Source of the DNA: Methanobrevibacter sp.
Lineage (GTDB): Archaea; Methanobacteriota; Methanobacteria; Methanobacteriales; Methanobacteriaceae
Direction: 5' to 3'
NCBI RefSeq assembly: GCF_015062935.1
Contig: NZ_SUTM01000004.1
Span: forward strand, 25,106-89,105
Length of the DNA stretch: 64,000 nucleotides
The position numbers were made by a program, and so were the translations under genes. Positions 2 to 16,508 of this stretch are shown here, piece by piece (the first letter of the stretch is position 1; each line of letters opens with the position of its first letter). Under the pieces are notes generated by a model that saw only the letters and a program-made list of their open reading frames with translations, had not been told where the DNA came from and did no database searches.

Positions 2-3000
2 ATTTCTCTATTGTTCAATGACCCAACTATCAGAAAACTTGCAGCCGAAATTGAAAGCAGCGATAAAGACTCTGATATAAGTGAAATTATTGAAATGGCA
101 AACAGCATGGATTACCTGCCGATGACTGACAACCAAATTGGTGTATACTACGAATGTATGCAAAGTCCCGGCGAAATCAAATATACCATGCCTACTACCA
201 TGAGACTGGGCTGTGATGTTGATGCAGATAAATTAAAAGAAGCAGTAATTGAAACTGTCGAAGCCCATCCATATCTCAAAACAAGAATTGTCATTGACGA
301 TGAAGGTGAACTGAAACAGAAGAGATGTGATGATGTTGCCATAGATGAAATTGAGATTGTAGAAGTCGATTCCATTAGCGATGAAGAAATGATGAAAAAT
401 GACGTAAAAGCATTTTCATTCGGTGATGAACAGTTATTCAGGGCTAAAATATATAAAACACCTGATGAAACAGTACTCTTCACTGATTTCCACCACATAA
501 TTACTGATGGTGTGTCTCAAATCAATTTCTTCGACGATATAGCTAATGCTTATGAAGGAAAAGACCTTAATGGTGAAATCGTTGACGGATATGTTTACAG
601 TCTGCTTGAAGATAATCTTAAAAACAGTGACGCTTACGGAAAAGCTAAAGAATTCTTCGATGAAAAACTTTCACAGGAAGTTGAATCAACAGTTCTTACT
701 CCAAACCTTAACGGTAATCCTGATGAGGGTAAATTAAAAGCATTTATTGATACTATTGATGCTGAAGAAATTAAAGAATTCTGTAATCGTAATTCATTTA
801 GTCAAAACTCATTATTCCTGGCTGCCCTCACATTAACATTGAATAAATACACTTTCAGCGATAAGACACTGATTACAACTATATTCAATGGTAGATCCAA
901 TCCATTGTATTATGACACTCAAGGATTCCTGGTAAAAACACTTCCATTGATATTCAACAATGAAAACAGACAGGAAACTATTAAAGAATTCATTAACGGC
1001 ATTGATGATGTCTGGAAAGACACTATGGCCAACAGCATTTACCCATACACAAATGTTGCACAGGAATATCAACTAAAACCCGAATTCTTCTTTACATATC
1101 AGGAATTTTATGATTCAGGACCTCGTGTAATAAATGGAAATCTTTGGGAAGAAAGGGAATTAGTTTCTGAAGATTTGGCTACAACTGAATATAAGATTAA
1201 CTTTGATATAGATGTTTCAGAAGATAAAATAGACTTTGTAATCATATATAATGATGAATTATACACTGAAGACTACATTAAAACATTTATCAAGTCCATG
1301 CAGCTTGTCTTAAATCAGTTCCTGGAAAATGATGTCAATGAATTATGCATCGGTGAAGTGGAATTGGAAACCACCAAAGAAATACCTACCTTCAGCCATG
1401 TGGAAACTCCATTCATCCACAAACGCTTTGAAAAACAGGTTGAAGCAAATCCTGACAACATTGCTCTTGTTGCAACAGATGCTACATTAACCAATGAAGA
1501 GCTTAACATCAAATCAAATCGTATAGCTAATGCACTTATCAGAAAAGGTGTTGAGCCGAGAAGCAACATCTTAGCAATGCTTCCAAGGGACAGCAACCTG
1601 ATAGCAACAATAATCGGTATCTTAAAGGCAGGATGTACATTTATCCCTATTGATTTGGAATATCCTAAAGAACGTATTGATTATATCTATGAAAACAGTC
1701 AGGCAGATTATATCATAACCTCTGACGGAAAAGCAGATAATGAATTGGACATTTATGAATTGCTTGAAGAGAAAAACACTTCAAATCCTAATGTTGAAAT
1801 TTCACCTAATGACTTGGCATACATGATTTACACTTCCGGTTCAACAGGATTGCCTAAAGGTGTAATGATTGGACATAAAAATGCATGTAACCAGGCCGAA
1901 TCCAATCCAAAATGCGAATACGATAATCTATTAAGTATTGCAACAATTGCATTCGATACATCTCTGGAGGATATCTTAACAGGTATTACAAACGGTATCA
2001 GAATAATATTCGCTAATGATTCAGAAATCAAGAATATTGTTGATTTAATCAGATTAATCAGGGAACACGAACCTCAAGTAATGGAATTCACTCCTTCAAG
2101 ATTGATATCCTATCTTGAAGTTGAGGAGTTCTGTGAAGTGATTGGCTGTGCCAAATGTATCGTTATGGGTGGAGAGCAATTCTCAGCTAAAGCATTTGAA
2201 GGCGTTAAAAAATACTGTGACGCTAAGGTCTACAACAGTTACGGACCAACTGAGGCAACAATTGCATCCAACTATAAAGAAATCACAGATCCAGAAAACA
2301 TTACAATCGGTAAAGCTCTTAAAAACTATGTAACCGAAGTAAGGGATATCGATGGAAAACTCCTGCCTCAAGGAGTAATGGGTGAGCTGTACATCGGTGG
2401 TGTCGGTGTAGGTAAAGGATACTACAACATGCCTGACAAAACAGAAGAAGTATATCTTACAATTAACAATATCCCATACTACAAGAGTGGGGACTATGCA
2501 ATAGAGCTTCCAGACGGAGACATTGACATTAAAGGAAGAATCGACAACCAAATCAAGCTCAGAGGATTGAGAATTGAAATTGGTGAAATCGAATCAAGCA
2601 TTAACAAATTCCCTAATGTCAAAAATGCAGTTGTTGTAATTAAGGAAATCAACAACAACGACCATTTATGTGCTTATTTCACAGCTGAAAATGAAATCGA
2701 TAAGGATGCATTGAAAGAATTCCTTAAAGAAAGATTAACATATTACATGGTTCCAACAGTGTTCATGCAATTGGATGAAATTCCACAATTGCCTAACGGT
2801 AAAACAGATACCAAAAAACTGCCAGAACCTAAATTAGAACTGGAAAACATAAAACCTGAAAATGAAACCGAGCAAAAACTGTTCGATATCACTTCAGAGT
2901 TAATCGGAACAGATGAATTCGGTGTTACTGATGATTTATATGCCATTGGATTTACCTCATTAACATTGATGAAATTAAACACCTTAATTTATAAGGAAAT

Positions 3001-6000
3001 GAATGTTAATCTGGACATTTCAATATTGTTCAACAGTCCAACAGTTAGAAAGCTTTCCGATGAGATTTTGAATCATGGTGAACAGTCATCAAAATTAGAT
3101 GAACTCATTGAATTAGCAGATACTCAGGAATATTTCCCATTGACAGAAAATCAACTGGGTATTTACTATGAGTGCATGCAGAGTCCTGGTGAAATCAAAT
3201 ACACCATGCCTGCAATTGCAAGGTTTGACCATGACGTTGATGCTGAAAAATTAAAAGAATCAATCGTCAAAGCAATTGAAGCACATCCATATCTTAAAAC
3301 AAGAATTGTAACTGCTGATGATGGTACATTAAAACAATATAAAAACATTTCTGCTGAAATAGATGAAATTGAAATTGTTAATGTGGATTCAATCAGTGAT
3401 GAAGAAATCATTGAAAATGATGTAAAAGCATTTTCATTTGACGGCGAACAATTGTTCAGATTCAAAATATACAATACTCCTGAAGAAATTTTATTGTTCA
3501 GCGATTTCCACCATATAATTACAGATGGTGTATCACAGGCATTATTATTTGAAGATATAGGAAATGCATATGAAAATAAAGAGATTGAAAAAGAAATCGT
3601 TGACGGTTATGTTTTCAGCTTAATTGAGAATTATCTGCAAAACAGTGAAAGATATGAGGATGCTAAAAAATTCTTTGATGACAAGCTGTCACAGGAAATC
3701 GATTCAACTGTTTTAACACCTGACCTTAACGGAGATCCTGAAGATGGATTAATCAAATTGGTCTATAGCAGAATGGATATTGGTAAAATTGATGATTTCT
3801 GTTTAAAACATTCAATAGGACACAATTCCTTGTTTATGTCTGCAATGATTTTGAGCTTGAACAAGTTCACTTATAGTGATGAGACATTGTTTACTACAAT
3901 ATTCAATGGAAGAACAAATCCTAACTATTTCAATACTCAAGGATTTTTAGTAAAAACCTTGCCATTGATTATTAAAAATGAAAACAGACAACAAACTGTT
4001 GAAAAATTCCTCAAATCTGTAGATAAAACTTGGATTGATTCAATCAACAATAGTATTTATCCATATACCCATATTTCTGATGAATATCAGTTAAAACCTG
4101 AAATATTCTATTCCTATAATGAGGGTTCAGGATCTGAAAGCCTTGTTATAAACGGCAAGGATTATGAAAACTATGAATTGTCTGATGCAACTGAAGAAAC
4201 AGAATATAAAATAGATATTTCAGTGCTTAAACAGGAAACCACACTTGATATAGGAATATCCTACAATGACCAATTGTACTCTGAGGATTATGTAAAAACA
4301 TTCCTGGCTTCAATTGAAACTGTATTGAATCAATTCATGGACAATGATGTTGAGACATTCAGAATATGCGATGTTGAACTTGAAACCACAAAAGAAGAAC
4401 CTACATTCATTCCTCTTGAAAATCCATTCATCCATAAGCGTTTCGAAGCACAAGTGGAAAGCAAACCTGATGAAATTGCATTGATATCAAATGGGAAAGA
4501 GTACACCTACAGTGAATTAAATGAATTAAGTAACCGTGTTGCTAACGGTCTGATTAAACGTGGAGTCGAACCTAAACACAATATTCTGATAATGCTTCCA
4601 AGAACTGCTGATTTAATTGCATCCATATTAGGTATTCTAAAGGCAGGATGCGGATTCATCCCAATCGATTTGGAATATCCTAAAGACAGAATTGAATACA
4701 TTTATGAAAACAGTGAAGCGGATTACATTATCTCAAATGAAACCTTTGATGTATCATTAAATATTAAAGAATTGCTTGAAGAAGACAATGTTGAATCTCC
4801 TGATGTGGAAATGTCTAAGGATGATACTGCATACATGATTTACACTTCAGGTTCCACAGGAAAACCTAAAGGAGTAATGATCAGTCATGAAAATGCATGT
4901 AACGAAACTGAAGGAAATCCTAAATGTGAATATGACAACCTATTGAGTATTGCTACAATTGCATTCGACACATCCCTTGAAGATATCCTTACAGGTTTAA
5001 CTAACGGAATTAAAATAATCTTTGCTAATGACACTGAAATCAAGAATGTGGTTGATTTAATACAGCTAATCAAAACAGAAAAACCGCAGGTCATGGAATT
5101 CACTCCATCAAGGTTACTGTCTTACCTTGAAGTTGAGGAGTTCTGTAACGTAATAGACTGCGCTGAATGTATCGTCATGGGAGGAGAACAATTCTCAGCC
5201 AAAGCGTTCAATGAAGTAAAACAGTACTGCGATGCAAAAGTCTACAACAGTTACGGACCGACAGAAGCAACAATAGCTTCCAACTACAAGGAAATTACTG
5301 ATCCTAACGTTATCACTATTGGTAAAGCATTGCAAAACTACGTAACCGAAGTAAGGGACATTGACGGAAAACTCCTGCCTCAGGGAGTAATGGGAGAGCT
5401 ATACATTGGAGGAACCGGTGTAGGTAAAGGATACTACAACATGCCTGAAAAAACCGAAGAAGTATACTTAACCATAAATGACATTCCATACTACAGAAGC
5501 GGAGACTATGCAATAGAACTTCCTGACGGTGACATTGATATCAAAGGAAGAATTGACAACCAAATCAAACTCAGAGGATTAAGAATAGAAATAGGTGAAA
5601 TTGAATCAAACATCTCCAGATTCCCAAATATCAAACGTGTTGTTGTTGCAATTAAGGAAATGAACAGCAGCGAACATTTATGTGCTTACTTCACAGCTGA
5701 GGAAGACATTGACACCAAACTCCTTAAACGCTACCTGCAAAGCAAGCTAACCCAGTATATGGTTCCAACAGTCTTCATGCAATTGGATGAAATTCCACAA
5801 TTGCCGAATGGAAAAACAGATATGAAATCATTGCCTGAACCTTCATTGGCACTTGATTATGTTGAACCTGAAACTGAAACTGAGAAAAAGCTATTCAAAC
5901 TCGTTTCATCACTTACAAGTGCAGAGGAATTCGGTATTACTGATGATTTATACGCTTTAGGATTCACTTCATTGACATTAATGAAATTGAATTCAATGAT

Positions 6001-9000
6001 TTATAATGAAACTGATGTAAACATTGAGATTACTGACCTGTTCAACAATCCTACAATCCAAAGTCTTGCAGACAAAGTAGACAACAATATTGATACCCAA
6101 ATTGATATTCCTGAAATCATAAAGACTGCTGAGACAATGGAACTGTTCCCATTGACCTCCAATCAGTTAGGTATCTACTATGAATGTATGCAGACACAGG
6201 AAATCAAGTACACAATGCCTTCAGCAATACACTTTGGCAGTGATATTGATCCGTTCAGACTCAAACAGGCAATCATTGATGCTATTGAAGCACATCCATA
6301 TCTTAAAACAAGAATAATCACCACTCCTGAAGGAGAATTAAGACAAAAAAGATGTGATGATATAGAAATTGATGAAATTGAAATTGCAGAAGTTGATTCA
6401 ATTACAAATGAAGAAATGATGGAAAATGACATCAGCTACATTCCAATTGAAGACAATCAGTTATTCAAATTCAAAATCTATAAAACTCCGACCGAAACAG
6501 TGCTGTTCACAGATATTCATCACATTATCACTGATGGTGTTTCACAAGACATTCTCTTTGATGACATTCTCAGCATTTATAACGGTGAAGAAATCGAAAG
6601 TGAAATCGTGGACGGATTTGCTTACAGTTTAATTGAAGAGCAACTCTCTGAAAATGAGGTTTCAAAAGAGTTCTATCAAAATAAATTTGCTCAAGGATTT
6701 GAATCAACTGTTTTAACTCCAAACCTGAATGGAAATCCTGATGAGGCTAAAATTAAGCTGATCGGTGACGGTATCAATTCAAACTTCGTTAGAATGTTCT
6801 GTCAAGACCATTCAATAAGTCCAAATGTACTGTTCATGAGTGCTACAATATTAGCTTTAAATAAATTCACATTCTCGGATAAGGCATTGATTACAACAAT
6901 TTTCAACGGTAGGTCAAACTCCAATTACTACAATACTCAAGGAATGCTGGTTAAAACACTGCCGATAATGGTTGACAGTTCAAATAGGGACATGTTCATT
7001 GAAGACTACATTAAAGTAGTGGACAAATCCTGGAAAGATTCATTAGTGCACAGCAATTATTCATACACTAAACTTTCAGAAGATTATCAATTAAAACCTG
7101 AATTCTTCTATGCATACCATGGAGCATTTGAAACAGATAATCTTGAATTGAATGGAAACACTTACGGTATGGAAGAGCTTGACGGTACTGTAGCAACCGA
7201 TTACAAGATTAACTTGGATGTTTACGATGACGGAGAAAATATTGGAATTTACATTGAATATAATGACCAAATATATACTGAAGAATACGTTAAAAAATTC
7301 TTGGATGCTATTAAATATGTTTTAGTACAATTCTTCGTAAATGACATGGATAAATTAAGAGTTAATGAAATCGAGCTTGCACCTAACTGGCTACTGCCTG
7401 AATTTGAGGAAGTTGTCAATCCGTTCTTACATAAACGTTTCGAAGAACAAGTGGCAGCCAAAGGAGATGAAATTGCGCTTGTTGCAAGTGACGCTTCATT
7501 ATCATATGATGAGCTTAACAGAAAGGCAAATCGCATAGCTAATGCATTAATCAGTAAGGGTGTTAAACCGAGAAGCAATATTTTGATAATGCTTCCTCGT
7601 ACCAGTGACCTGATTGCTTCAATAATCGGTGTATTAAAAGCAGGTTGTGCATTCATACCACTCGATTTAAAGTTCCCTAAAGAAAGAATTGAGTACATAT
7701 ATGAAAACAGTCAGGCAGATTACATAATTAATGTAGATGGCGTTGCACTTAATTCACTATCTATTGAAGAATTACTTGATGAAAGCAATGACGAAAATCC
7801 TGATGTTGAAATTTCATGTGATGATCTGGCATACATGATTTACACTTCAGGTTCAACAGGAAACCCTAAAGGTGTAATGATCAGTCACAAGAATGCATGT
7901 AACCAGACAGAATCAAATCCAAAATGCGAATACAACAACCTGTTAAGTATCGCAACAATTGCATTCGACACATCCCTTGAGGACATTCTTACAGGATTTA
8001 CCAACGGAATAAAAATAATATTTGCAAACGACGATGAAATAAAAAGCATTGTTGAGCTAATCAGATTAATCAAACGTGAAAAACCTGAAGTAATGGAATT
8101 CACACCGTCAAGATTGCTGTCATATCTTGAGTTTGAGGAATTCTGCGATGCAATAAGCTGCGCTAAATGTGTGGTAATGGGTGGAGAACAATTCTCAGCC
8201 AAAGCATTTGAAGGCGTTAAAAAATACGCTGATGCTAAAGTCTACAACAGTTACGGACCAACAGAAATCACAATTGCATCCAGTTATAAGGAAATAACTG
8301 ATCCTGAAAACATTACAATCGGTAAGGCTTTAAGAAATTACATAACTGATGTAAGGGATATTGACGGAAAACTTCTCCCACAGGGGGTAATGGGTGAGCT
8401 GTACATCGGTGGTGTCGGTGTAGGTCAAGGATACTACAACATGCCTGACAAAACCGAAGAGGTATATCTCACAATTGATGATATTCCATACTACAGAAGT
8501 GGAGATTATGCAATTGAACTTCCAAATGGTGAAATTGACATTAAAGGAAGAATTGATAACCAAATCAAGCTCAGAGGATTGAGAATAGAGATTGGTGAAA
8601 TCGAATCCAACATCTCAAACTTCCCAGACATCAAGCAGAATATTGTTGTAATCAAGGAAATAAGAAACAATGAACATTTATGCGCTTACTTCACAGCAGA
8701 TGCACAAATCAATAAAGATGAGCTTAAAGCCTACTTGGGCGAAAGATTAACTCAATATATGGTTCCAACAGTATTTATGCAAATTGATGAAATGCCTCAA
8801 ACTCCTAACGGAAAAACAGATGTAAAGGCATTGCCTGAACCTAAATTGGAATTAACTTATGTTGCTCCTAAAAACCAGCTTGAACAGACAATCTGTGCAA
8901 TTTACTCATCTATCCTTGATATAGAAATTGTCGGTGCAGAAGATAACTTCTTTGAAATAGGTGGAACATCACTTATTGCATCCAAGCTTATCATTGAATT

Positions 9001-10312
9001 GCTCAAGCAGGATTATAATGTGAAATATGATGACATTTTCAGAAACCAAACTCCAAGAGCATTAGCTGACTTCCTCTCAGGTGAAGGAATTTCAGAAGAC
9101 TTGGATGTTGACATCATTGAAAACTACGACTACACTCAAATCCATAAGCTTCTTGAACAAAACACCTTTGAAAACTTTGCCAAAGGTACAAATCTTGAAC
9201 TGGGCAATGTCCTGTTAACTGGTGTAACCGGATTCATGGGTATTCACGTATTATATGAATACATCAAACATGAAGAAGGAACAATTTACTGTATGATTAG
9301 AAAAGGTAAATTCGACAGCTGTGAAGAACGTTTAATTGATTTGATGAATTATTACTTCGAGGAAGACTTCACTGACCTTATCGGATCACGTATAATCTTA
9401 AGCGAAGGGGATATTACCAGTCTGGATGACTTCAAAAAGCTAGAGGATTATCCAATTGACACAATCATAAACTGTGCAGCAATAGTAAAACACTACACTC
9501 ATGATGACTACATATTCAGAGTTAACGTTGACGGTGTGGTCAATGGACTTGAATTTGCTGAAGCAAACAACATCAATTACGTTCAAATCTCAACTACAAG
9601 TGTTTTAGATGAATTTACAGAAGATACTGACATTGAAAATGTTCACTGTGATGAAACAACCCTGTATTGGGGACAAGACTTGTCAAACAAATACTTGAAC
9701 AGTAAGTTCCTTGCAGAAAGAATGGTTCTTGAAAAAGCATTAACAGGCATGAATGTAAAAATAATAAGGGTTGGAAACCTTATGGGCCGTTATTCAGACG
9801 GTAGATTCCAGAAAAACTTTGATACAAACGCATTCTTAAATAACATTAAAGCTATTAAGAACTTAAAAGCAACAATTGCTCCAATTTCCGAGGAACTCGT
9901 TGAATTAAGTCCGATTGATTATGTGGCAAAGGCAACTCTTGCTCTTGCTAAAACACCAAAAGAATCCATGATATTCCACGCTGTAAGCGATAAGCTAATA
10001 CCTAACAGTGACATATTCGATGCTTTAAATTCATTCGGATTTGAAATTGACGAAGTAACTCCTGAAGAATTTAAAGAAATCTATGAAAACAACATGGATG
10101 AAAACATTCAGGGAATGATTACAGCTGATATGAGTATTAATGATTTCGACTTTGAAGATGAAGAAGAAGTTGAAGGAGATTACGGTGAACTTGTTAAAAT
10201 AGACCAAACATTGGATATTCTAAGTTCATTAGGCTTTGACTGGCCTGAATGTGATGAAGATTATCTTGAAAGATTTATAGGTTATTTAAATGAGGTACAT
10301 TATTTTGATTAA
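2..10312 (+). CDS. Non-ribosomal peptide synthetase, 5'-truncated: [end of T]-C-A-T-C-A-T-C-A-T-R (terminal thioester reductase)
   Basis: The frame is open from nt 2 (ISLLFNDPTIRKLA, matching the ends of the internal T domains), so the TTG at 11 is not the real start. Three HHIITDG condensation motifs (nt 491, 3509, 6518; modules ~1005 aa), three YTSGSTGxPKG / YGPTE / GRIDNQIKLRG / NGK adenylation motif sets, T-domain serines in GFTS, GFTS, GGTS (nt ~2957, 5969, 8969), and an SDR-type R domain with TGVTGFMG and YLNSK (~9200-10300). Confidence 0.96.
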   Translation: MSLLFNDPTIRKLAAEIESSDKDSDISEIIEMANSMDYLPMTDNQIGVYYECMQSPGEIKYTMPTTMRLGCDVDADKLKEAVIETVEAHPYLKTRIVIDDEGELKQKRCDDVAIDEIEIVEVDSISDEEMMKNDVKAFSFGDEQLFRAKIYKTPDETVLFTDFHHIITDGVSQINFFDDIANAYEGKDLNGEIVDGYVYSLLEDNLKNSDAYGKAKEFFDEKLSQEVESTVLTPNLNGNPDEGKLKAFIDTIDAEEIKEFCNRNSFSQNSLFLAALTLTLNKYTFSDKTLITTIFNGRSNPLYYDTQGFLVKTLPLIFNNENRQETIKEFINGIDDVWKDTMANSIYPYTNVAQEYQLKPEFFFTYQEFYDSGPRVINGNLWEERELVSEDLATTEYKINFDIDVSEDKIDFVIIYNDELYTEDYIKTFIKSMQLVLNQFLENDVNELCIGEVELETTKEIPTFSHVETPFIHKRFEKQVEANPDNIALVATDATLTNEELNIKSNRIANALIRKGVEPRSNILAMLPRDSNLIATIIGILKAGCTFIPIDLEYPKERIDYIYENSQADYIITSDGKADNELDIYELLEEKNTSNPNVEISPNDLAYMIYTSGSTGLPKGVMIGHKNACNQAESNPKCEYDNLLSIATIAFDTSLEDILTGITNGIRIIFANDSEIKNIVDLIRLIREHEPQVMEFTPSRLISYLEVEEFCEVIGCAKCIVMGGEQFSAKAFEGVKKYCDAKVYNSYGPTEATIASNYKEITDPENITIGKALKNYVTEVRDIDGKLLPQGVMGELYIGGVGVGKGYYNMPDKTEEVYLTINNIPYYKSGDYAIELPDGDIDIKGRIDNQIKLRGLRIEIGEIESSINKFPNVKNAVVVIKEINNNDHLCAYFTAENEIDKDALKEFLKERLTYYMVPTVFMQLDEIPQLPNGKTDTKKLPEPKLELENIKPENETEQKLFDITSELIGTDEFGVTDDLYAIGFTSLTLMKLNTLIYKEMNVNLDISILFNSPTVRKLSDEILNHGEQSSKLDELIELADTQEYFPLTENQLGIYYECMQSPGEIKYTMPAIARFDHDVDAEKLKESIVKAIEAHPYLKTRIVTADDGTLKQYKNISAEIDEIEIVNVDSISDEEIIENDVKAFSFDGEQLFRFKIYNTPEEILLFSDFHHIITDGVSQALLFEDIGNAYENKEIEKEIVDGYVFSLIENYLQNSERYEDAKKFFDDKLSQEIDSTVLTPDLNGDPEDGLIKLVYSRMDIGKIDDFCLKHSIGHNSLFMSAMILSLNKFTYSDETLFTTIFNGRTNPNYFNTQGFLVKTLPLIIKNENRQQTVEKFLKSVDKTWIDSINNSIYPYTHISDEYQLKPEIFYSYNEGSGSESLVINGKDYENYELSDATEETEYKIDISVLKQETTLDIGISYNDQLYSEDYVKTFLASIETVLNQFMDNDVETFRICDVELETTKEEPTFIPLENPFIHKRFEAQVESKPDEIALISNGKEYTYSELNELSNRVANGLIKRGVEPKHNILIMLPRTADLIASILGILKAGCGFIPIDLEYPKDRIEYIYENSEADYIISNETFDVSLNIKELLEEDNVESPDVEMSKDDTAYMIYTSGSTGKPKGVMISHENACNETEGNPKCEYDNLLSIATIAFDTSLEDILTGLTNGIKIIFANDTEIKNVVDLIQLIKTEKPQVMEFTPSRLLSYLEVEEFCNVIDCAECIVMGGEQFSAKAFNEVKQYCDAKVYNSYGPTEATIASNYKEITDPNVITIGKALQNYVTEVRDIDGKLLPQGVMGELYIGGTGVGKGYYNMPEKTEEVYLTINDIPYYRSGDYAIELPDGDIDIKGRIDNQIKLRGLRIEIGEIESNISRFPNIKRVVVAIKEMNSSEHLCAYFTAEEDIDTKLLKRYLQSKLTQYMVPTVFMQLDEIPQLPNGKTDMKSLPEPSLALDYVEPETETEKKLFKLVSSLTSAEEFGITDDLYALGFTSLTLMKLNSMIYNETDVNIEITDLFNNPTIQSLADKVDNNIDTQIDIPEIIKTAETMELFPLTSNQLGIYYECMQTQEIKYTMPSAIHFGSDIDPFRLKQAIIDAIEAHPYLKTRIITTPEGELRQKRCDDIEIDEIEIAEVDSITNEEMMENDISYIPIEDNQLFKFKIYKTPTETVLFTDIHHIITDGVSQDILFDDILSIYNGEEIESEIVDGFAYSLIEEQLSENEVSKEFYQNKFAQGFESTVLTPNLNGNPDEAKIKLIGDGINSNFVRMFCQDHSISPNVLFMSATILALNKFTFSDKALITTIFNGRSNSNYYNTQGMLVKTLPIMVDSSNRDMFIEDYIKVVDKSWKDSLVHSNYSYTKLSEDYQLKPEFFYAYHGAFETDNLELNGNTYGMEELDGTVATDYKINLDVYDDGENIGIYIEYNDQIYTEEYVKKFLDAIKYVLVQFFVNDMDKLRVNEIELAPNWLLPEFEEVVNPFLHKRFEEQVAAKGDEIALVASDASLSYDELNRKANRIANALISKGVKPRSNILIMLPRTSDLIASIIGVLKAGCAFIPLDLKFPKERIEYIYENSQADYIINVDGVALNSLSIEELLDESNDENPDVEISCDDLAYMIYTSGSTGNPKGVMISHKNACNQTESNPKCEYNNLLSIATIAFDTSLEDILTGFTNGIKIIFANDDEIKSIVELIRLIKREKPEVMEFTPSRLLSYLEFEEFCDAISCAKCVVMGGEQFSAKAFEGVKKYADAKVYNSYGPTEITIASSYKEITDPENITIGKALRNYITDVRDIDGKLLPQGVMGELYIGGVGVGQGYYNMPDKTEEVYLTIDDIPYYRSGDYAIELPNGEIDIKGRIDNQIKLRGLRIEIGEIESNISNFPDIKQNIVVIKEIRNNEHLCAYFTADAQINKDELKAYLGERLTQYMVPTVFMQIDEMPQTPNGKTDVKALPEPKLELTYVAPKNQLEQTICAIYSSILDIEIVGAEDNFFEIGGTSLIASKLIIELLKQDYNVKYDDIFRNQTPRALADFLSGEGISEDLDVDIIENYDYTQIHKLLEQNTFENFAKGTNLELGNVLLTGVTGFMGIHVLYEYIKHEEGTIYCMIRKGKFDSCEERLIDLMNYYFEEDFTDLIGSRIILSEGDITSLDDFKKLEDYPIDTIINCAAIVKHYTHDDYIFRVNVDGVVNGLEFAEANNINYVQISTTSVLDEFTEDTDIENVHCDETTLYWGQDLSNKYLNSKFLAERMVLEKALTGMNVKIIRVGNLMGRYSDGRFQKNFDTNAFLNNIKAIKNLKATIAPISEELVELSPIDYVAKATLALAKTPKESMIFHAVSDKLIPNSDIFDALNSFGFEIDEVTPEEFKEIYENNMDENIQGMITADMSINDFDFEDEEEVEGDYGELVKIDQTLDILSSLGFDWPECDEDYLERFIGYLNEVHYFD

Positions 10313-10327: not shown

Positions 10328-12004
10328 ATGAATTTCAAAATAGCAGATAGTAAATTTAAGGAATTATTATTACCTACATTGCTTATCGTAATGGCTTTGA
10401 ACATAAGTTCAGTTGTCGACACGTTTTTTGTAGGTACATTCATAGGTGAAAATGCAGTTGCTGCAATTGATCTTTTGGAGCCTATGATTCTATTAGTAAC
10501 CGTTTTAGAATGGTTGTTTGGACTTGGTGGTCAAATTTTGGCGTTGAGTAAAAAATCAGAATTTGATATTGATGGAAGTAATCGTTTCTTTACAACATCA
10601 ATAGTTGTATCAGTTATTGCTTCACTTGTAATGGCATTGGTGTGTTTAATATTTCTTGATCAATTGGCTGTAGTTTTAGGTTCAAATGCTGCTACAAAAC
10701 CTCTTGTTATGCAATATTCCACATATCTGTACGGATGCTTCTTTGTATCTACAGTTGTAGGAATACTTGCTCAATATATCCGTGTGGACGGTCAGCCAAA
10801 CTTCGCATCAGTCGTAATTATAGTCGCAAATATAGTTAATATCATTTTTGATTATATTTTCTTATCTTCAGGCATGGGTATGGCATCCGCTTCACTTGCA
10901 TCATTTATAGGGTACAGCGTAGGAATCGTTATCTGTTTATTTTACATTCGCAATCCTAAAAGAACATTCAGATTTGTCAGATCTGCACTTGAAATTAAAA
11001 CCTTCATTAAAACCACTTGGGAAATGATTAAAGTGGGATTCCCTGGTGCAAGTATAGGTGCTTTTGATGTAGTGTTTGTTTATCTTTTAAACCTGTTTTT
11101 GGCTTCAACACTGGGAAATACTGGATTGACTACCTATATGGTATGTACTGATGCATTGGTTATTGCAAGTATTGTTGATGTTGGTGTTTCAGAGACATTG
11201 ACGTCAATTGTTCCGGTATACTATTCAAAGCATGATTATCTTAATTTAAACCACCTTGTAAAAAATTCACTTCTGATAAGCGGGTCATGTGCAATAATAT
11301 TGATGGGTGTCATGTGGGTATGGCCTCAAGGATTCCTGGCACTTTACAACTTTAATCATAGTGAAATAGCTGACTTTGTGATAAATGCGCTTAGATTATA
11401 TTCATTATTCTTTATAGTTTCAGTGCTTCCTAATTTACTGGTATTCTATTATGAAGCAATAGAAAGGCCGGTATTGTCATCAGCAATATCCATTCTTTAT
11501 ACTCTTGTAATGCCGTTTATTTCCATTGTAATATTATATAACTTGATTGGATCTAATGGAATATGGCTAGGATTTACTGTAGGAACTATAATTTCTATGG
11601 GAATTGCCCTTGTAGTTATTAAGCTAATTCAAAAAAGAGAGCCGCAATACAGCGGATTATTCTTCATTGAGCATGATTTGATACCTAAAACCCGAAATTT
11701 TGTCTTAACTGATAATGACTTGAATGCAAGAAAAGAATGTTTAAACCATTTGAAAGATTTAAATGCCGATGATAAGTTCTGTGATAACACAAATAAGATT
11801 TTTGATGTGATTTTCGATACAAATCCTCACGGCACCTATGTGGAAGTGTTAGTCATTGATTATGATGATAATATACATCTTGATGTTAAGTATGATGGGG
11901 AACATGAAAATCTTGAACATCTTAAACATAACTTCCCTGAGGGTCTTTTAAAATATGCAGAAGTTTTAGGATTCAACACTATTGAATATGTGATGAAAAA
12001 ATAG
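10328..12004 (+). CDS. MATE-family efflux transporter with a ~120-aa soluble C-terminal extension
   Basis: About 12 hydrophobic segments with MATE-like motifs (VDTFFVG, RVDGQPNFAS, NIVNIIFDYIF); 15 nt after the NRPS stop. Confidence 0.9.
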   Translation: MNFKIADSKFKELLLPTLLIVMALNISSVVDTFFVGTFIGENAVAAIDLLEPMILLVTVLEWLFGLGGQILALSKKSEFDIDGSNRFFTTSIVVSVIASLVMALVCLIFLDQLAVVLGSNAATKPLVMQYSTYLYGCFFVSTVVGILAQYIRVDGQPNFASVVIIVANIVNIIFDYIFLSSGMGMASASLASFIGYSVGIVICLFYIRNPKRTFRFVRSALEIKTFIKTTWEMIKVGFPGASIGAFDVVFVYLLNLFLASTLGNTGLTTYMVCTDALVIASIVDVGVSETLTSIVPVYYSKHDYLNLNHLVKNSLLISGSCAIILMGVMWVWPQGFLALYNFNHSEIADFVINALRLYSLFFIVSVLPNLLVFYYEAIERPVLSSAISILYTLVMPFISIVILYNLIGSNGIWLGFTVGTIISMGIALVVIKLIQKREPQYSGLFFIEHDLIPKTRNFVLTDNDLNARKECLNHLKDLNADDKFCDNTNKIFDVIFDTNPHGTYVEVLVIDYDDNIHLDVKYDGEHENLEHLKHNFPEGLLKYAEVLGFNTIEYVMKK

Positions 12005-12032: not shown

Positions 12033-12905
12033 ATGGAATTCAAAAAATTGAATAATAATGAAAAAATGCCATTTATAAGTTATGGCGTTTATGAAATAAG
12101 TCCTAGAAAAACAAAAAAAGCTGTTATTAATGCTTTAAATGCAGGATATACTTCAATTGATAATGCGCAAATCTACTATAATGAAGAAAAAGTTGGTGAA
12201 GCAATTTCTGAATCAGGAATTCCCAGGGAAGAACTATTTTTGACCAGTAAAAACTGGGTAAGCAATTCAGGATATGAAAAAACAATGAAAGCCGTTAATA
12301 AAACATTAGATGATTTGCAAACGGATTATCTTGACTTGTTGCTTATTCATCAGCCATTTGGAGATTATTACGGGTCATACAGAGCATTTCAGGATTTGCA
12401 AAAAGAGGGAAAGGTATTGTCAATTGGTGTTTCAAATTTTGATTCTGTTCGTCTGGTTGACTTATGCATGAATTTTGACATAGTTCCTCAAGTCAATCAG
12501 GTTGAAACAACACCTTATTACCAGCAATATGAAGCTAACAAGATAATGAAGGAGTGGGATGTGACTCATCAGAGTTGGGGCCCTCTTTCCGAAGGGTTAG
12601 ATAATCTATTTGAAAATCCGATTCTTTTGGAAATAGCTGAAAAATATGACAAGAGCGCCGCACAGGTTATTTTAAGATGGTTGATTGACAGGGATATTCC
12701 TCTCTCATGCAGATCTGTTAAAACAGAAAGGATGGAAGAAAATATTGATGTTTTTGATTTCACTTTAAATAAAAAGGAAATCGAAAAAATTAAGGAATTG
12801 GACAGAGGCAAAAGTCCTTTCAATGATTATAATGACCCTGAAATTGCAGAGGAGTTTATTTCAGAAGTGATTTCTGATTCAAAATTCAGTTTTGATCTGT
12901 TTTAA
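12033..12905 (+). CDS. Aldo/keto reductase (2,5-diketo-gluconate reductase-like)
   Basis: IDNAQIYYNEEKVG, LFLTSK, LDLLLIHQP, SIGVSNF, PQVNQVE, AQVILRW and SVKTERMEEN motifs. Confidence 0.92.
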   Translation: MEFKKLNNNEKMPFISYGVYEISPRKTKKAVINALNAGYTSIDNAQIYYNEEKVGEAISESGIPREELFLTSKNWVSNSGYEKTMKAVNKTLDDLQTDYLDLLLIHQPFGDYYGSYRAFQDLQKEGKVLSIGVSNFDSVRLVDLCMNFDIVPQVNQVETTPYYQQYEANKIMKEWDVTHQSWGPLSEGLDNLFENPILLEIAEKYDKSAAQVILRWLIDRDIPLSCRSVKTERMEENIDVFDFTLNKKEIEKIKELDRGKSPFNDYNDPEIAEEFISEVISDSKFSFDLF

Positions 12906-12940
12906 TAATTTTAAAAATATTTTCTTGCAAACTCAAATTA

Positions 12941-12978
12941 AATTGTTGATTTTTATCAACATTTTACTTATTTTTTTA
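12941..12978 (+). terminator. Probable terminator of the NRPS-MATE-AKR transcript
   Basis: TGTTGAT-tttt-ATCAACA hairpin followed by T-rich tracts. Confidence 0.55.
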
Positions 12979-13200
12979 ATATATTATATTGTATGAAATA
13001 TTCCAACTAAAATTGAATTGATTGGATAATTTCACCTTTTCGGTGTTCTAAATGTGATTACTTTAAATATCATGTTAAATATACATAACAATAATATATA
13101 ATGTTCAATGTAATTCTTTAAAGATAATATATCTTTTATTTTGTATCTTCGATTTTCTATTCAATGAAAATTTAGTTTAGTGAATATTATTATAACATAA

Positions 13201-15096
13201 ATGAAATTAAGGAAATTAAATATGAAAATATATAAAGATTATAGGCGATTGGAAGATATTGATGAACTCCGTATTTATGATATTGACCAAAAAGAATTGT
13301 ATAATCCAACACCTCTTGAATTCAGCGTAGATGATGTTCCTTTTCCACAGCTGATAAGTAATATCCCAATGGATGTAAATATTTTAATACCTCACAATGA
13401 CGGAAATGATTTTATAATAAAATCTTTGGGAAGTTTTATACTGGGACATTTTAATCTTCAGTTGGATGATGTGAGAGGAAGGCTTTTAAGTAAAATTTCA
13501 CCTGTTTTCTATGAAATGTTTCATGAATATTTCAGAGAAGTCTATAAAACTCAAAAAACTAAAGTGGTTCATGTTTTTTATTATGGAAAACATAATTTAT
13601 CAAGAATTACTATTGTTAAAATCGTTTATGAACTGAACAGGTTATTTGTTTTTGCAGACCATATCAATAAAGATGCCAATGTTTCAGATGAATTTGATAA
13701 AATCAAGTATTCCGAAGATAAAGTGAGTATGATGGAATATTTCACTCAGACAGGAAGTTATCGTAGGGTTGATGGAAAATATACCTGGACACAAGGGATA
13801 TATAATATTATAAATCGTCCTAGGGAGGAACGTGATGAATATTATAATATTGTATTTGATTTAGCCATTCCTGAAGATAAGGATCTGATTGAAAAAATCT
13901 TAAATATCATGGATACCGATACAAGCCATCATGAGGATATTATAAGGATTAGAACTGAAGATGGAGTATTAAAATATCTTGAGATTAATCTTTATTCAAA
14001 TTTTGATGAAGAAGGTAATCTGATTAGTCGTTATGGATTATTTAATGATATAACTACCTATTCAAAACAATCATCTATAAAACCTGTCGATTTTCTATTG
14101 CAAGGATTTAAAAACAGTAAAAAATTGGCTTTGTTAATTGAACCGTTAAATTTTAAACATTTTGAATTTTCAGAAGGCTATTATTATTTCATTGACCAAG
14201 ATCCATCTGAGTATGTTCATTCCCTTGATTTAATTAACAATATTGTTGAGGATGAAACAAAAAAACAAATCATTCGATTGGTTGATGGAGAAATAAACAG
14301 AATTGATGAAACATTCAGATACAATGTTGGCGGTGATGAATCCAATCAGAAAATCTGTGAACTGTACATTGAACGATTTGAGTTCAGTAACAGTAATCAC
14401 AGTTTGGGTTTTCTAGCTGACATTACCGATGAAAAGAATAAACAACTGGAATTGCAAGATGCCAACGAGCATAAGGCCGTATTAATTAAAGAAGTTCATC
14501 ATAGAGTCAAAAACAATCTGCAAGTTCTCAACAGTTTCTTAAATCTTGAAAGAAGAGCATATAAAGATAAACCTGAAGTAATCATAGATCATATGCAGTC
14601 ACGTCTGACTTCACTTGCTTTATTGCATGAAAAAACATACAATACTCATGACTTTAAAAACATCAATCTTAATGATTTTATTCAGGATCAGGACAGTCAA
14701 ATTAGAAATTTGGTTGGCATGAAGAATGGTGTCGAATTTGAATCTGAAGTTGACAAAGATCTTAACCTGACAATTGAGGTTATTACTCCTTTATTGTTGA
14801 TTATCGATGAATTGAATATGAATGCCATAAAACATGCATTTCCGGATAAAACAGTTCCTGACAAAAAGATTATCAAAAAAATTGTTAAAATTGATGAAAA
14901 TACTGCCGAATTAACATTCAAGGATAATGGTGTAGGTATTGAAGACCCTAAAAAGATTAAAAAGAATTTAGGGTGCATAATAATTCAAAATCTTACTAAA
15001 CAGTTGGACGGCAAAATCCAATTGGTTGAGCATAAAAATGGAACTGAATATAAATTGGTTTTCCCTATTCATATGCAACATACAATACATGGATGA
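13201..15096 (+). CDS. Soluble sensor histidine kinase, HisKA_2/HWE type, with PAS-like input region
   Basis: H-box EVHHRVKNNLQ, N-box ELNMNAIKHAF, G1 box DNGVGI, QLDG tail; no transmembrane segment seen. Start may be the ATG at 13222. Confidence 0.9.
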   Translation: MKLRKLNMKIYKDYRRLEDIDELRIYDIDQKELYNPTPLEFSVDDVPFPQLISNIPMDVNILIPHNDGNDFIIKSLGSFILGHFNLQLDDVRGRLLSKISPVFYEMFHEYFREVYKTQKTKVVHVFYYGKHNLSRITIVKIVYELNRLFVFADHINKDANVSDEFDKIKYSEDKVSMMEYFTQTGSYRRVDGKYTWTQGIYNIINRPREERDEYYNIVFDLAIPEDKDLIEKILNIMDTDTSHHEDIIRIRTEDGVLKYLEINLYSNFDEEGNLISRYGLFNDITTYSKQSSIKPVDFLLQGFKNSKKLALLIEPLNFKHFEFSEGYYYFIDQDPSEYVHSLDLINNIVEDETKKQIIRLVDGEINRIDETFRYNVGGDESNQKICELYIERFEFSNSNHSLGFLADITDEKNKQLELQDANEHKAVLIKEVHHRVKNNLQVLNSFLNLERRAYKDKPEVIIDHMQSRLTSLALLHEKTYNTHDFKNINLNDFIQDQDSQIRNLVGMKNGVEFESEVDKDLNLTIEVITPLLLIIDELNMNAIKHAFPDKTVPDKKIIKKIVKIDENTAELTFKDNGVGIEDPKKIKKNLGCIIIQNLTKQLDGKIQLVEHKNGTEYKLVFPIHMQHTIHG

Positions 15097-15097
15097 T

Positions 15098-15472
15098 TTA
15101 GTCAAGTAACTGTTTTTTAAAGCCTTCTTTAGCTTTAACAGCAGTTTCTTTATTATATAAATCTTTATTGTTGTCTAGAGTATATTCAACCAAATAATAT
15201 ATTATTTTATTTAATGATTTTCCTTTCTCTGTTAGGAAATATTCAATATTTGCATCATCAACCACCTTTTTGATAAGGTCTTGTTCTTCCATGAATTTCA
15301 AACTTCTTGATAATGCTTTGTTGGACAGTTCAGGCCTTCCTTCTTTAAACTCACTAAAACGTGTTTTTCCAAAAAACATGTCGCAAATAATTTGCAAAAC
15401 CCATTTTCTATTTAAAATATCAAGGGATAATTCCACAGGACAGTGAGTAAGTTCAAAATCAAAGTATGTCAT
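15098..15472 (-). CDS. HxlR-family winged-helix transcriptional regulator
   Basis: CPVELSLDILNRKW...RFSEF...LSNKALSRSLKFMEEQDLI...EYFLTEKGKSL pattern; divergent from an AKR gene. Confidence 0.9.
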   Translation of the reverse strand: MTYFDFELTHCPVELSLDILNRKWVLQIICDMFFGKTRFSEFKEGRPELSNKALSRSLKFMEEQDLIKKVVDDANIEYFLTEKGKSLNKIIYYLVEYTLDNNKDLYNKETAVKAKEGFKKQLLD

Positions 15473-15566
15473 ATGCTTTAAACATTTTTATTTTGTTTTA
15501 TTTTTAATTTTTGGTGTCATAGCTGTCACTTTAATTTTTTATATTTTCTTTTAAAGATATAATTTC

Positions 15567-16508
15567 ATGACTTTAAAAGACAACCTTCCAAAAATTGCTC
15601 TTGGTGCATGGGCATGGGGTAATGATGGAACTTTCGGAAATGAGCATAAAGTTGACGATTTAAAACCAATTTATGATAAAGCAATGGAATTAGGTCTTAA
15701 TCTATGGGATACTGCTTATGTCTATGGAATGGGAACTTCAGAAGAGGTTTTAGGAGAATTTCTAAGGACATCAAATCGTGATGATTTTGTAATTTCAACA
15801 AAATTCACACCTCAGCTGGCTGAAATGTTTGAGGCAAATGAAGTAACTTCAATGTATGAAAACAGTGCAAAAATTTTAGGTGTGGACGATATTGATATAT
15901 TTTGGATTCACAATCCTGTTGGAGCACCTGAATGGACTAAAAAACTGGTGGAAACAGCTAAAGAGCATGATATTAAAATGATTGGTGTTTCAAACCATAA
16001 TCTTGCAGAAATCAAGGAAGCTAATGAAATCCTAAAAGAAGCTGGATTAAAGCTTGGTGCTGTACAAAACCATTACAGTTTACTTAACAGATCATCTGAA
16101 GACTCAGGAATTCTAGAATATTGTAAAGAGAATGATATTGTTTTCTTTGCATACATGGTTCTTGAACAAGGGGCATTATCAGGTAAATATGATACTGCTC
16201 ATCCATTCCCTGAAGGATCTGACAGAGCAAATGCATATGGAGACAGTTTAGCTGAAATTGAAGAGTTAAACAATGCATTGGCTGAAATCGCTGATGCTCA
16301 TGATGCAAAAATAGCTCAGCTTCCAATCGCTTGGGCAGTTGCAAAAGGAACTCTTCCAATTATTGGTGCAACAAAAGTTCATCACGTAGAAGATGCTGCT
16401 GAAGCGGTAAATATTGAATTAAGTGATGATGAGATTAAAACAATGGAAGAATTGGCTGATAAAGCTAATGTAAATGTTATAAGAGTCTGGGAAAAAGAAA
16501 TGAAATAA
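15567..16508 (+). CDS. Aldo/keto reductase (second subfamily)
   Basis: LGAWAWG, WDTAYVYGMGTSEEVLG, ISTKF, DIFWIHNP, IGVSNHN, VQNHYSLL, LPIIGATKVHH motifs. Confidence 0.92.
   Translation: MTLKDNLPKIALGAWAWGNDGTFGNEHKVDDLKPIYDKAMELGLNLWDTAYVYGMGTSEEVLGEFLRTSNRDDFVISTKFTPQLAEMFEANEVTSMYENSAKILGVDDIDIFWIHNPVGAPEWTKKLVETAKEHDIKMIGVSNHNLAEIKEANEILKEAGLKLGAVQNHYSLLNRSSEDSGILEYCKENDIVFFAYMVLEQGALSGKYDTAHPFPEGSDRANAYGDSLAEIEELNNALAEIADAHDAKIAQLPIAWAVAKGTLPIIGATKVHHVEDAAEAVNIELSDDEIKTMEELADKANVNVIRVWEKEMK

What the first reader, a model, noticed from the sequence alone, without database searches (positions are those of the whole stretch)
2..10312. Archaeal NRPS predicted to make a homo-oligomer of a basic amino acid released as an aldehyde/alcohol
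Seen: manual alignment to GrsA-PheA numbering (FDTSLE, MEFTP, VMGGE, NSYGPTExTIA, NGK) gives the same 10-residue code, D-T-E-E-V-G-S-I-A-K, in all three visible A domains. There is no E, MT or TE domain, and the protein ends in an SDR-type R domain. Established: acidic residues at 239/278 with G-S-I resemble Orn/Lys/Dab codes such as DVGEIGSIDK and DAESIGSVCK; R domains release peptide aldehydes or alcohols; Methanobrevibacter NRPS genes are known but their products are, to my knowledge, uncharacterised. Inference: with at least one more module upstream, this line makes a cationic oligopeptide aldehyde/alcohol (a protease-inhibitor-like or polyamine-like molecule), an undescribed archaeal natural product.
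Basis: partly seen in the sequence, partly recalled or inferred. Interest (0 to 1): 0.82.

Follow-up and report, generated by a model that had tools for sequence, protein, structure and literature searches.

The report
Seven-module methanogen peptide synthetase
The window holds the last three modules of an intact seven-module non-ribosomal peptide synthetase from a rumen-type Methanobrevibacter; it is a new, larger member of an enzyme family known since 2010 whose product is still unknown, and it probably makes an N-capped peptide rich in lysine- or ornithine-like residues rather than a homo-oligomer.

Summary
Window 2-10312 encodes (T)-C-A-T-C-A-T-C-A-T-R, and all three A domains carry the code DTEEVGSIAK. 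There is no E, MT or TE domain, and the R domain looks catalytically competent.

The gene runs 11.3 kb further upstream. The full ORF is about 7,214 aa with seven modules: a relic half C domain, then A1-T, six C-A-T modules, and R.
- A1 lacks Asp235 (code VAATSGIGIK).
- Modules 2 and 4 carry a second acidic-pocket code, DVDEFGSITK.
- The line reads x-B-A-B-A-A-A, so it is not a homo-oligomer.

The terminal T-R is about 78% identical to the crystallised PCP-R of Mru_0351 from M. ruminantium M1, whose product is unknown. A MatE exporter follows, as in M1.

The two acidic codes dominate this Methanobrevibacter family: 188 of 270 A domains, in proteins of 2-7 modules. Their nearest known codes are Lys/Orn codes, at 6-7 of 10 positions. 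ScoA and MmaA, with DTEDVGTVVK and DIEDVGSVVK, activate L-Lys experimentally.

A cationic peptide aldehyde or alcohol is therefore plausible but unproven. Module 3 differs from its orthologue through gene conversion of the specificity subdomain.

Verdict: real, intact, a new member of a known kind, of moderate interest.

The parts
2..61 (+). C-terminal tail of carrier domain T4. The gene continues 11.3 kb upstream of the window; full ORF is G000:C14:13767-35417, with ATG at C14:13773.
107..1327 (+). Condensation domain C5 (HHIITDG motif)
   Evidence: Pfam PF00668, 3 stretches; motif positions
1430..2803 (+). Adenylation domain A5, code DTEEVGSIAK
   Evidence: TIGR01733 325 bits, above its cut-off; PDB A-domain hits
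2903..3061 (+). Carrier domain T5 (GFTSL)
3125..4345 (+). Condensation domain C6
   Evidence: best stretch aa 1042-1448
4442..5815 (+). Adenylation domain A6, code DTEEVGSIAK. Its core is 98-100% identical in protein to the core of upstream module 3, the donor or partner of a gene-conversion tract.
5915..6073 (+). Carrier domain T6
6134..7354 (+). Condensation domain C7
7442..8815 (+). Adenylation domain A7, code DTEEVGSIAK
8915..9073 (+). Terminal carrier domain T7 (GGTSL)
9215..10312 (+). Terminal thioester reductase (R) domain, SDR fold, ending in the stop codon
   Evidence: PF07993 at 8e-32; full-length alignment to PDB 6VTJ, Mru_0351 PCP-R, E 7e-208; AusA-R is next best
10328..12004 (+). 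MatE-family exporter, 15 bp after the NRPS stop. Conserved behind orthologous NRPS genes.
12033..12905 (+). DkgA-like aldo/keto reductase, 28 bp after MatE. Conserved only in the closest relative, G013, so its link to the pathway is weak.

Best explanation
This is the 3' half of one intact gene of about 7,214 aa for a seven-module non-ribosomal peptide synthetase in a Methanobrevibacter. The layout is a relic C-terminal half of a C domain, then A1-T1, then six C-A-T modules, then a terminal NAD(P)H-dependent thioester reductase.

Proposed mechanism (inferred from domain order and codes):
- An AusB-like PPTase encoded elsewhere in the genome primes the seven carrier domains.
- A1 has Val in place of Asp235, so it loads a starter that is not an alpha-amino acid, most likely an alpha-keto, alpha-hydroxy or other carboxylic acid.
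- Modules 2-7 add six L-alpha-amino acids in the order B-A-B-A-A-A. A is the code DTEEVGSIAK and B is DVDEFGSITK.
- Both pockets hold two acidic residues, at 239 and 278. They most likely select cationic diamino-type residues: Lys/Orn-like for A, Orn/Arg/Dab-like for B.
- The R domain releases the N-capped heptapeptide by reduction, as a C-terminal aldehyde that may cyclise with a side-chain amine, or as an alcohol.
- The co-transcribed MatE pump exports the product.

The enzyme belongs to the Mru_0351 family. That family is diversifying inside the genus by module gain and loss and by gene conversion of the specificity-conferring A subdomain.

Shown here: architecture, motifs, codes, family membership, mosaic structure. 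Inferred: substrates, extent of reduction, role of the AKR, biological function.
For: - Full ORF and seven A3, six HHxxxDG, seven T-Ser and one R motif; Pfam on both halves.
- Codes for all seven A domains.
- N-terminal residues 21-212 are homologous to the C-terminal C subdomain only (29% identity, E 2e-18), with no His motif.
- T7-R aligns end to end with PDB 6VTJ, Mru_0351 PCP-R (E 7e-208).
- MatE lies directly downstream, as for mru0352, and is conserved in orthologues.
- A PPTase is present in the genome; its best named match is AusB.
- Nearest known codes are Orn (DVGEIGSIDK: 7/10 to B, 6/10 to A) and Lys (DTEDVGTVVK and DIEDVGSVVK: 6/10 to A).
- ScoA and MmaA, which carry those Lys codes, activate L-Lys in ATP-PPi exchange. 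Rv0101 carries the same code and puts Orn into kupyaphores.
- The family member P0112 carries DTEDVGSIVK, 8/10 to both the Lys codes and code A.
- Keto-acid-activating A domains typically replace Asp235 with an aliphatic residue (PMC10949194).
- The orthologue Mru_0351 is transcribed in culture.
- Code A is invariant across 67 domains down to 72% identity.
Against: - Code identity to characterised Lys/Orn domains is only 6-7/10, and three of those positions (D235, G301, K517) are nearly universal.
- No specificity predictor (NRPSpredictor, antiSMASH, PARAS) could be run, and no assay exists for any member of the family.
- No dedicated Orn, Dab or other precursor genes sit in the cluster.
- A1 could be an inactive relic: it scores just under the TIGR01733 cut-off (295 against 317 bits) and has YGCTE instead of YGPTE.
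- The AKR is conserved only in one close relative.
- Sequence cannot distinguish 2e- from 4e- reduction.
Confidence: 0.6

Rival explanations
1. The assembly line is functional, but the two acidic-pocket codes select non-cationic polar residues (for example Ser, Thr, Asn, Gln, His or a non-proteinogenic amino acid). The product would then be a neutral N-capped heptapeptide aldehyde or alcohol.
For: The best code matches are only 6-7/10. No exact or near-exact match to either code was found in the searchable literature. The closest A domains in the PDB by overall similarity are LgrA Val/Gly, TycA and GrsA Phe, none of them basic.
Against: Two carboxylates at pocket positions 239 and 278, together with Gly301/Ser322, recur in experimentally verified Lys/Orn domains. 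No non-basic code in my comparison table scores above 5/10. Overall A-domain similarity tracks phylogeny, not specificity.
Confidence: 0.22
2. One reading: a homo-oligomer of a single basic amino acid, with every module loading the same residue.
For: The three modules visible in the window share one code. Some shorter family members do have all-A or all-B architectures (AA, AAA, BB).
Against: The complete gene has three classes of A domain. The starter is VAATSGIGIK without Asp235, modules 2 and 4 are DVDEFGSITK, and modules 3 and 5-7 are DTEEVGSIAK. The A and B cores are only 62-79% identical, and each is separately conserved across the family.
Confidence: 0.04
3. The gene is intact but cryptic or decaying in this strain: it is not expressed, or the starter module is dead, so no product is made.
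For: A1 has an unusual pocket and YGCTE in the A5 motif, and it begins with a truncated C domain. NRPS presence is patchy in the genus, with R-domain homologues in 16 of 25 genomes, as expected for dispensable genes. Expression could not be checked.
Against: A 21.6-kb ORF has no stop or frameshift, and all catalytic motifs are intact in every domain. The orthologue in G013 keeps the same length (7,212 aa) and the same A1-type code. The relic C subdomain is a conserved family feature, also present in Mru_0351. Mru_0351 is transcribed at a high level in M1.
Confidence: 0.1

Closest known systems
Mru_0351 NRPS with MatE mru0352 of Methanobrevibacter ruminantium M1 (Leahy et al. 2010, PMC2812497; PCP-R structures 6VTJ/6VTZ, PMC8024701)
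   Same: Same family. T-R is about 78% identical over its full length, and A domains are about 69% identical. Both have a relic half C domain at the N-terminus, C-A-T repeats, a terminal R and MatE directly downstream. The B code DVDEFGSITK is shared. The product is unknown in both.
   Different: Seven modules against four. Mru_0351 reads B-B'-c-B (DVDEFGSITK, DVDDFGSITK, DALTGGIVTK, DVDEFGSITK), starts with an amino-acid-type A domain and has no DTEEVGSIAK module. This gene reads x-B-A-B-A-A-A, with an Asp235-less starter.
AusA/AusB aureusimine (pyrazinone) synthetase of Staphylococcus aureus
   Same: AusA is the best named NCBIfam match for the A domains and the T-R, and AusB for the genome's PPTase. 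AusA-R is the second-best PDB match to the R domain (E 1e-49). Release is reductive, to an aldehyde.
   Different: AusA is a two-module A-T-C-A-T-R enzyme that loads hydrophobic residues, and its dipeptide aldehyde cyclises to a pyrazinone through the free N-terminal amine. All scores here are far below the equivalog cut-offs. This enzyme has seven modules, acidic pockets and a probably amine-less starter.
Isonitrile-lipopeptide NRPSs ScoA/MmaA/Rv0101 and myxochelin MxcG (a Lys/Orn-loading module followed by an R domain)
   Same: They have acidic-pocket codes (DTEDVGTVVK, DIEDVGSVVK) that are 6/10 identical to code A. They load Lys or Orn, as verified experimentally, and release through a terminal R domain.
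   Different: They have one or two modules, acylate both amines of a single diamino acid and carry out a 4e- reduction to the alcohol. They are actinobacterial or myxobacterial and show no close overall homology; MxcG scores only 97-209 bits.
Epsilon-poly-L-lysine synthetase Pls (PDB 7WEW)
   Same: An NRPS-like enzyme that makes a polycationic lysine oligomer. It is a distant A-domain hit (E 2e-41).
   Different: Pls has a single A-T followed by membrane-embedded C-like domains that polymerise iteratively through epsilon-amide bonds, and it has no R domain. Here there are six discrete canonical C-A-T modules.

Membership tests
Modular type-I NRPS | Repeated C-A-T modules with the catalytic motifs: HHxxxDG in C, cores A3/A5/A7/A8/A10 in A, and the Ser of the T domain | tested here: met
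   Pfam finds 3 C, 3 A and 3 T domains in the window and 3 C, 4 A and 4 T upstream. Motif census: six HHIITDG, seven YTSGSTGxPKG, seven GRxDNQIKLRG, seven T-Ser. A5 passes TIGR01733.
Modular type-I NRPS | A phosphopantetheinyl transferase is available to prime the carrier domains | tested here: met
   PF01648 hit above its cut-off at G000:C22:56297-56584. Its best NCBIfam match is AusB.
Terminal thioester reductase (R) domain, SDR superfamily | Rossmann GxxGxxG motif, Thr/Tyr/Lys catalytic residues, and a position directly after the last T domain | tested here: met
   PF07993 at 8e-32. TGVTGFMG, ISTTSV and YLNSK align with the same residues of 6VTJ. TIGR01746 scores 164 bits, below its 213-bit cut-off.
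Terminal thioester reductase (R) domain, SDR superfamily | NAD(P)H-dependent release of an aldehyde (2e-) or an alcohol (4e-) | not testable with these tools
   PMC8024701 states that it remains unclear how R domains set the extent of reduction. Greater similarity to aldehyde-forming AusA-R than to alcohol-forming MxaA-R is only a hint.
Mru_0351-type Methanobrevibacter NRPS family | High full-length similarity of the T-R and A domains to Mru_0351, and occurrence in Methanobrevibacter | tested here: met
   6VTJ aligns at E 7e-208 over residues 2-488. P0025, which is Mru_0351, is 69% identical in the A domain. R-domain homologues occur in 16/25 genomes of the same genus and 0/16 outside it. McrB is in the genome.
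Mru_0351-type Methanobrevibacter NRPS family | MatE exporter immediately downstream, and an N-terminal relic C subdomain before A1 | tested here: met
   MatE starts 15 bp after the stop and is conserved in G013, G009, G023, G021 and G024. The relic subdomain is shown, and the same N-terminal sequence type appears in Mru_0351 and others.
Lys/Orn-activating A domains | Asp235 and Lys517 present, with acidic residues lining the bottom of the pocket (239/278 or 278/331) | tested here: met
   DTEEVGSIAK and DVDEFGSITK, compared with DVGEIGSIDK (Orn) and DTEDVGTVVK and DIEDVGSVVK (Lys).
Lys/Orn-activating A domains | Demonstrated preferential adenylation of Lys or Orn | not testable with these tools
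   No biochemical data exist for any family member, and the product of Mru_0351 is unknown.
Alpha-keto/hydroxy-acid-activating A domains (for the starter A1) | Asp235 replaced by an aliphatic residue, with the remaining catalytic cores intact | tested here: met
   A1 has SFVAF (Val235), and the orthologues read VAATNGIGIK, VAATCGTGIK and VAVTTGGGFK. The A3, A7, A8 and A10 cores are present. The rule is stated in PMC10949194.
Alpha-keto/hydroxy-acid-activating A domains (for the starter A1) | An associated ketoreductase domain (usual in depsipeptide modules) and demonstrated keto-acid activation | tested here: not met
   Pfam finds no KR domain in module 1. Activation is not testable here. A1 is therefore not filed as a member; the safe statement is only that it probably loads a non-alpha-amino acid.

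The most novel reading that the evidence does not exclude
Rumen Methanobrevibacter species carry a combinatorial family of exported, N-capped, polycationic (Lys/Orn-rich) peptide aldehydes of 2 to 7 residues. New variants arise by module gain and loss and by gene conversion of the A-domain specificity subdomain. In this clade the cap may be an aryl alpha-keto acid such as 4-hydroxyphenylpyruvate, loaded by the Asp235-to-Val starter domain and supplied by a second, cluster-linked prephenate dehydrogenase. These would be the first archaeal non-ribosomal cationic peptides, acting as antimicrobials, protease inhibitors or cell-surface-binding molecules in the rumen.
Probability: 0.3. Interest if true: 0.75.

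Novelty: new member of a known kind. Interest (0 to 1): 0.45.

Why it matters
Methanobrevibacter dominates methane production in ruminants, and its NRPS products have remained unidentified since 2010. The Mru_0351 authors state that identifying the product would bear on methane mitigation.

This gene is the largest member of that family seen here. Comparison across the family yields a concrete, testable prediction: most building blocks are one of two acidic-pocket types, probably diamino acids. That narrows what to look for by mass spectrometry and which amino acids to test in A-domain assays.

The G000/G013 pair is also a clean natural example of a specificity-subdomain swap inside an otherwise orthologous module, which is useful for NRPS engineering.

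Tried and rejected
- Literature searches for the exact codes DTEEVGSIAK and DVDEFGSITK found nothing. Searches for several remembered Lys/Orn/Dab/Arg codes found only two papers, so most of the comparison table rests on my memory of Stachelhaus 1999.
- No paper reporting a product for any Methanobrevibacter NRPS was found.
- mcrA (PF02249) and archaeal 16S (RF01959) were not found in the assembly. mcrB lies 2.3 kb from a contig end, so mcrA is probably lost in a gap. I rejected the idea that the genome is not a methanogen.
- The AKR as a dedicated tailoring enzyme: it is conserved only in G013, so this is left open.
- Prephenate dehydrogenase paralogue as a cluster gene: it lies next to this NRPS in G000 and G001, but next to a different NRPS in G013, and it is absent from G003, which has a Val235 starter. 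I kept it only as a low-probability lead.
- PDB sequence search cannot give specificity: the top A-domain hits are LgrA, TycA and GrsA.
- No structure prediction was run, because the tools do not expose pocket geometry.
Full report
**Observation**

Window 2-10312 (+) is one open frame running in from the window edge, 3,436 aa. Pfam finds three Condensation, three AMP-binding (two with a scored AMP-binding_C) and three PP-binding domains, plus a terminal NAD_binding_4/Epimerase (SDR) domain. It finds no methyltransferase, thioesterase or epimerase-type domain.

Each C domain has a single HHIITDG motif, so none is a dual E/C type. I aligned the A domains to a GrsA-PheA fragment that reproduces the published PheA code DAWTIAAICK.

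**The whole gene**

The window is C14:25106-89105 of a 2.5-Mb, 44-contig genome. The frame continues 3,780 codons upstream to an ATG at C14:13773, preceded by a 378-bp AT-rich spacer. The complete protein is about 7,214 aa with no stop or frameshift.

- It has seven A3 cores, six HHxxxDG motifs, seven carrier-Ser motifs and one R motif. Pfam on the upstream half finds four A, three C and four T domains.
- The first 212 residues are homologous only to the C-terminal subdomain of a C domain (29% identity, E 2e-18) and lack the His motif. No remnant of the N-terminal subdomain lies upstream.
- The same relic begins Mru_0351 and other family members, so it is a family feature and not damage.

**All seven codes**

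| Module | Code | Class |
|---|---|---|
| A1 | VAATSGIGIK | x (no Asp235) |
| A2, A4 | DVDEFGSITK | B |
| A3, A5, A6, A7 | DTEEVGSIAK | A |

The line reads x-B-A-B-A-A-A, so the homo-oligomer inference fails once the upstream sequence is read.

A1 keeps cores A3, A7, A8 and A10, including the Lys517 equivalent, but has YGCTE in A5 and Val at position 235. Its orthologues keep this type: VAATNGIGIK in G013, VAATCGTGIK in G001 and VAVTTGGGFK in G003 and P0006.

Asp235 binds the alpha-amino group. Keto-acid-activating A domains typically replace it with an aliphatic residue (PMC10949194). A1 therefore most likely loads an acid that is not an alpha-amino acid. There is no KR domain, so I do not file A1 as a depsipeptide-type keto-acid module.

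**Family membership**

- That NRPS was reported in 2010 with four modules, a terminal reductase and a MatE gene downstream. The structure paper of 2021 states that its product is unknown.
- Here a MatE gene starts 15 bp after the NRPS stop, and a DkgA-like aldo/keto reductase follows 28 bp after MatE.
- MatE is conserved behind the orthologous genes in five relatives. The reductase is conserved only in the closest one, G013.
- The genome encodes McrB. mcrA and 16S were not found, probably because of contig ends.
- R-domain homologues occur in 16 of 25 genomes of the same genus and in none of 16 outside it.
- A protein search returns hundreds of Methanobrevibacter proteins of about 2,180, 3,180, 4,190 and 5,190 aa, that is 2, 3, 4 and 5 modules. 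The best bacterial hits, Clostridium and Bacillus, are only 37-42% identical.
- G013 has a 7,212-aa orthologue.
- The best named NCBIfam matches are AusA for the A and T-R domains and AusB for the genome's single PPTase. All are far below equivalog cut-offs.

**What the codes mean**

In 85 family proteins with 270 A domains, DTEEVGSIAK is the commonest code (67), followed by DVDEFGSITK (48) and DVDDFGSITK (38). In all, 188 of the 270 domains have Asp235 plus acidic residues at both 239 and 278. Architectures are combinatorial: BBcB (the Mru_0351 type), BAA, BB, AAA, xBBB and others. Code A is unchanged in domains down to 72% identity, so the pocket is under selection.

The nearest characterised codes are:
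- Orn, DVGEIGSIDK (confirmed as an Orn signature in PMC3992020): 7/10 to B and 6/10 to A.
- Lys, DTEDVGTVVK and DIEDVGSVVK: 6/10 to A.

ScoA and MmaA, which carry those Lys codes, activate L-Lys and not Orn in ATP-PPi exchange. Rv0101 has the same code as MmaA but yields an ornithine core in kupyaphores. This acidic-pocket signature therefore marks diamino acids but does not fix chain length.

The family member P0112 carries DTEDVGSIVK, which is 8/10 to both the Lys codes and code A.

A cationic substrate is thus the best-supported reading. It rests on moderate code similarity plus pocket chemistry, not on an assay or a trained predictor. I put it at about 0.6-0.65. I rate "Lys-like for A, Orn/Arg/Dab-like for B" as weaker still.

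**Release**

The R domain has the Rossmann motif and the Thr/Tyr/Lys residues, aligned with those of 6VTJ, so it is not a dead or Dieckmann-type R*. It is more similar to aldehyde-forming AusA-R (E 1e-49) than to alcohol-forming MxaA-R (E 2e-18). The literature says the extent of reduction cannot yet be read from sequence.

If the last residue carries a side-chain amine, the aldehyde could cyclise to an imine. With an amine-less cap, a pyrazinone-type or head-to-tail imine is not possible. Both statements are inferences.

**Evolution**

A sliding comparison of the six C-A-T modules of G000 and G013 shows a mosaic.
- G000 module 3 is 94-98% identical to G013 module 3, except in the stretch from core A3 to about A7/A8. 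There it is 98-100% identical in protein (86-98% in DNA) to G000 module 6.
- The same stretch of G013 module 3 is 100% identical to G013 module 4.
- The A cores of G000 modules 2 and 4 are 96-100% identical, while their C domains are about 50% identical.

The specificity subdomain is therefore homogenised and exchanged by intragenic gene conversion, and one such event changed position 3 from B to A. This kind of recombination is known in bacterial NRPSs. Here it is seen between two closely related archaeal genomes.

**Expression**

Indirectly, Mru_0351, mru_0352 (MatE) and the PPTase mru_0514 are transcribed in M1 and mildly induced by lauric acid.

**Verdict**

The feature is real and intact.
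- Right: archaeal origin, reductive release, a plausible basic-residue pocket, unknown product.
- Wrong: a homo-oligomer.
- Overstated: the novelty, because the family, its MatE partner and its PCP-R structure are already published.

It is a new, largest-so-far member of a known kind, of moderate interest. The family-wide dominance of two acidic-pocket codes makes the long-open question of the product directly testable.

Noticed in passing
G000:C14:12075-13379 (-), 0.4 kb upstream of the NRPS start (outside the window; L001:12072-13379): This is a second prephenate dehydrogenase paralogue, 38% identical to the copy on C40. It exists only in G000, G001 and G013. In G001 it also lies 3.7 kb upstream of the seven-module-type NRPS. 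In G013 it lies 4 kb upstream of a different NRPS, whose first A domain also lacks Asp235 (IVRGIGSIAK). It may supply an aryl alpha-keto acid starter.
   Followed up: partly
G000:C22:42141-49961 (-) and C22:56297-56584 (+) (L036, L032): The genome has a second NRPS of 2,607 aa, of the mru0068 type: C-A-T-C-A-T-R with codes IVRGIGSIAK and DVQIIAMVY-. It has its own MatE downstream and the only PPTase (AusB-like) about 6 kb upstream.
   Followed up: partly
G000:C14 about 19.8-21.3 kb (module 3, upstream of the window), compared with window about 4841-5600 (module 6 A core): A gene-conversion tract runs from core A3 to A7/A8. It is 98-100% identical in protein between modules 3 and 6, and it changes the module-3 code relative to the G013 orthologue.
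   Followed up: yes
window 11640-12004: The MatE protein is 558 aa, about 120 residues longer than the MATE models, which end near residue 435. A sibling first-reader note calls this tail RsbW-like. Pfam and NCBIfam gave no hit for it here.
   Followed up: no
window 12033-16508: Two aldo/keto reductases (a third lies at about window 17650-18555 by tblastn), a PAS histidine kinase (HisKA_2) and an HxlR-type regulator follow the NRPS-MatE pair. Only the first AKR is conserved in G013.
   Followed up: partly
G000:C8:173741-174478 and genome-wide: mcrB sits 2.3 kb from the end of contig C8. No mcrA C-terminal domain and no 16S rRNA were found in the assembly although it is rated 99.6% complete. 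These are probably assembly gaps.
   Followed up: partly
L001:703-12034 (C14:703-12034): The region upstream of the NRPS is unusually rich in efflux-type genes: four MFS transporters and an ABC transporter with two membrane domains, along with MarR and TetR regulators and a DUF169 protein.
   Followed up: no
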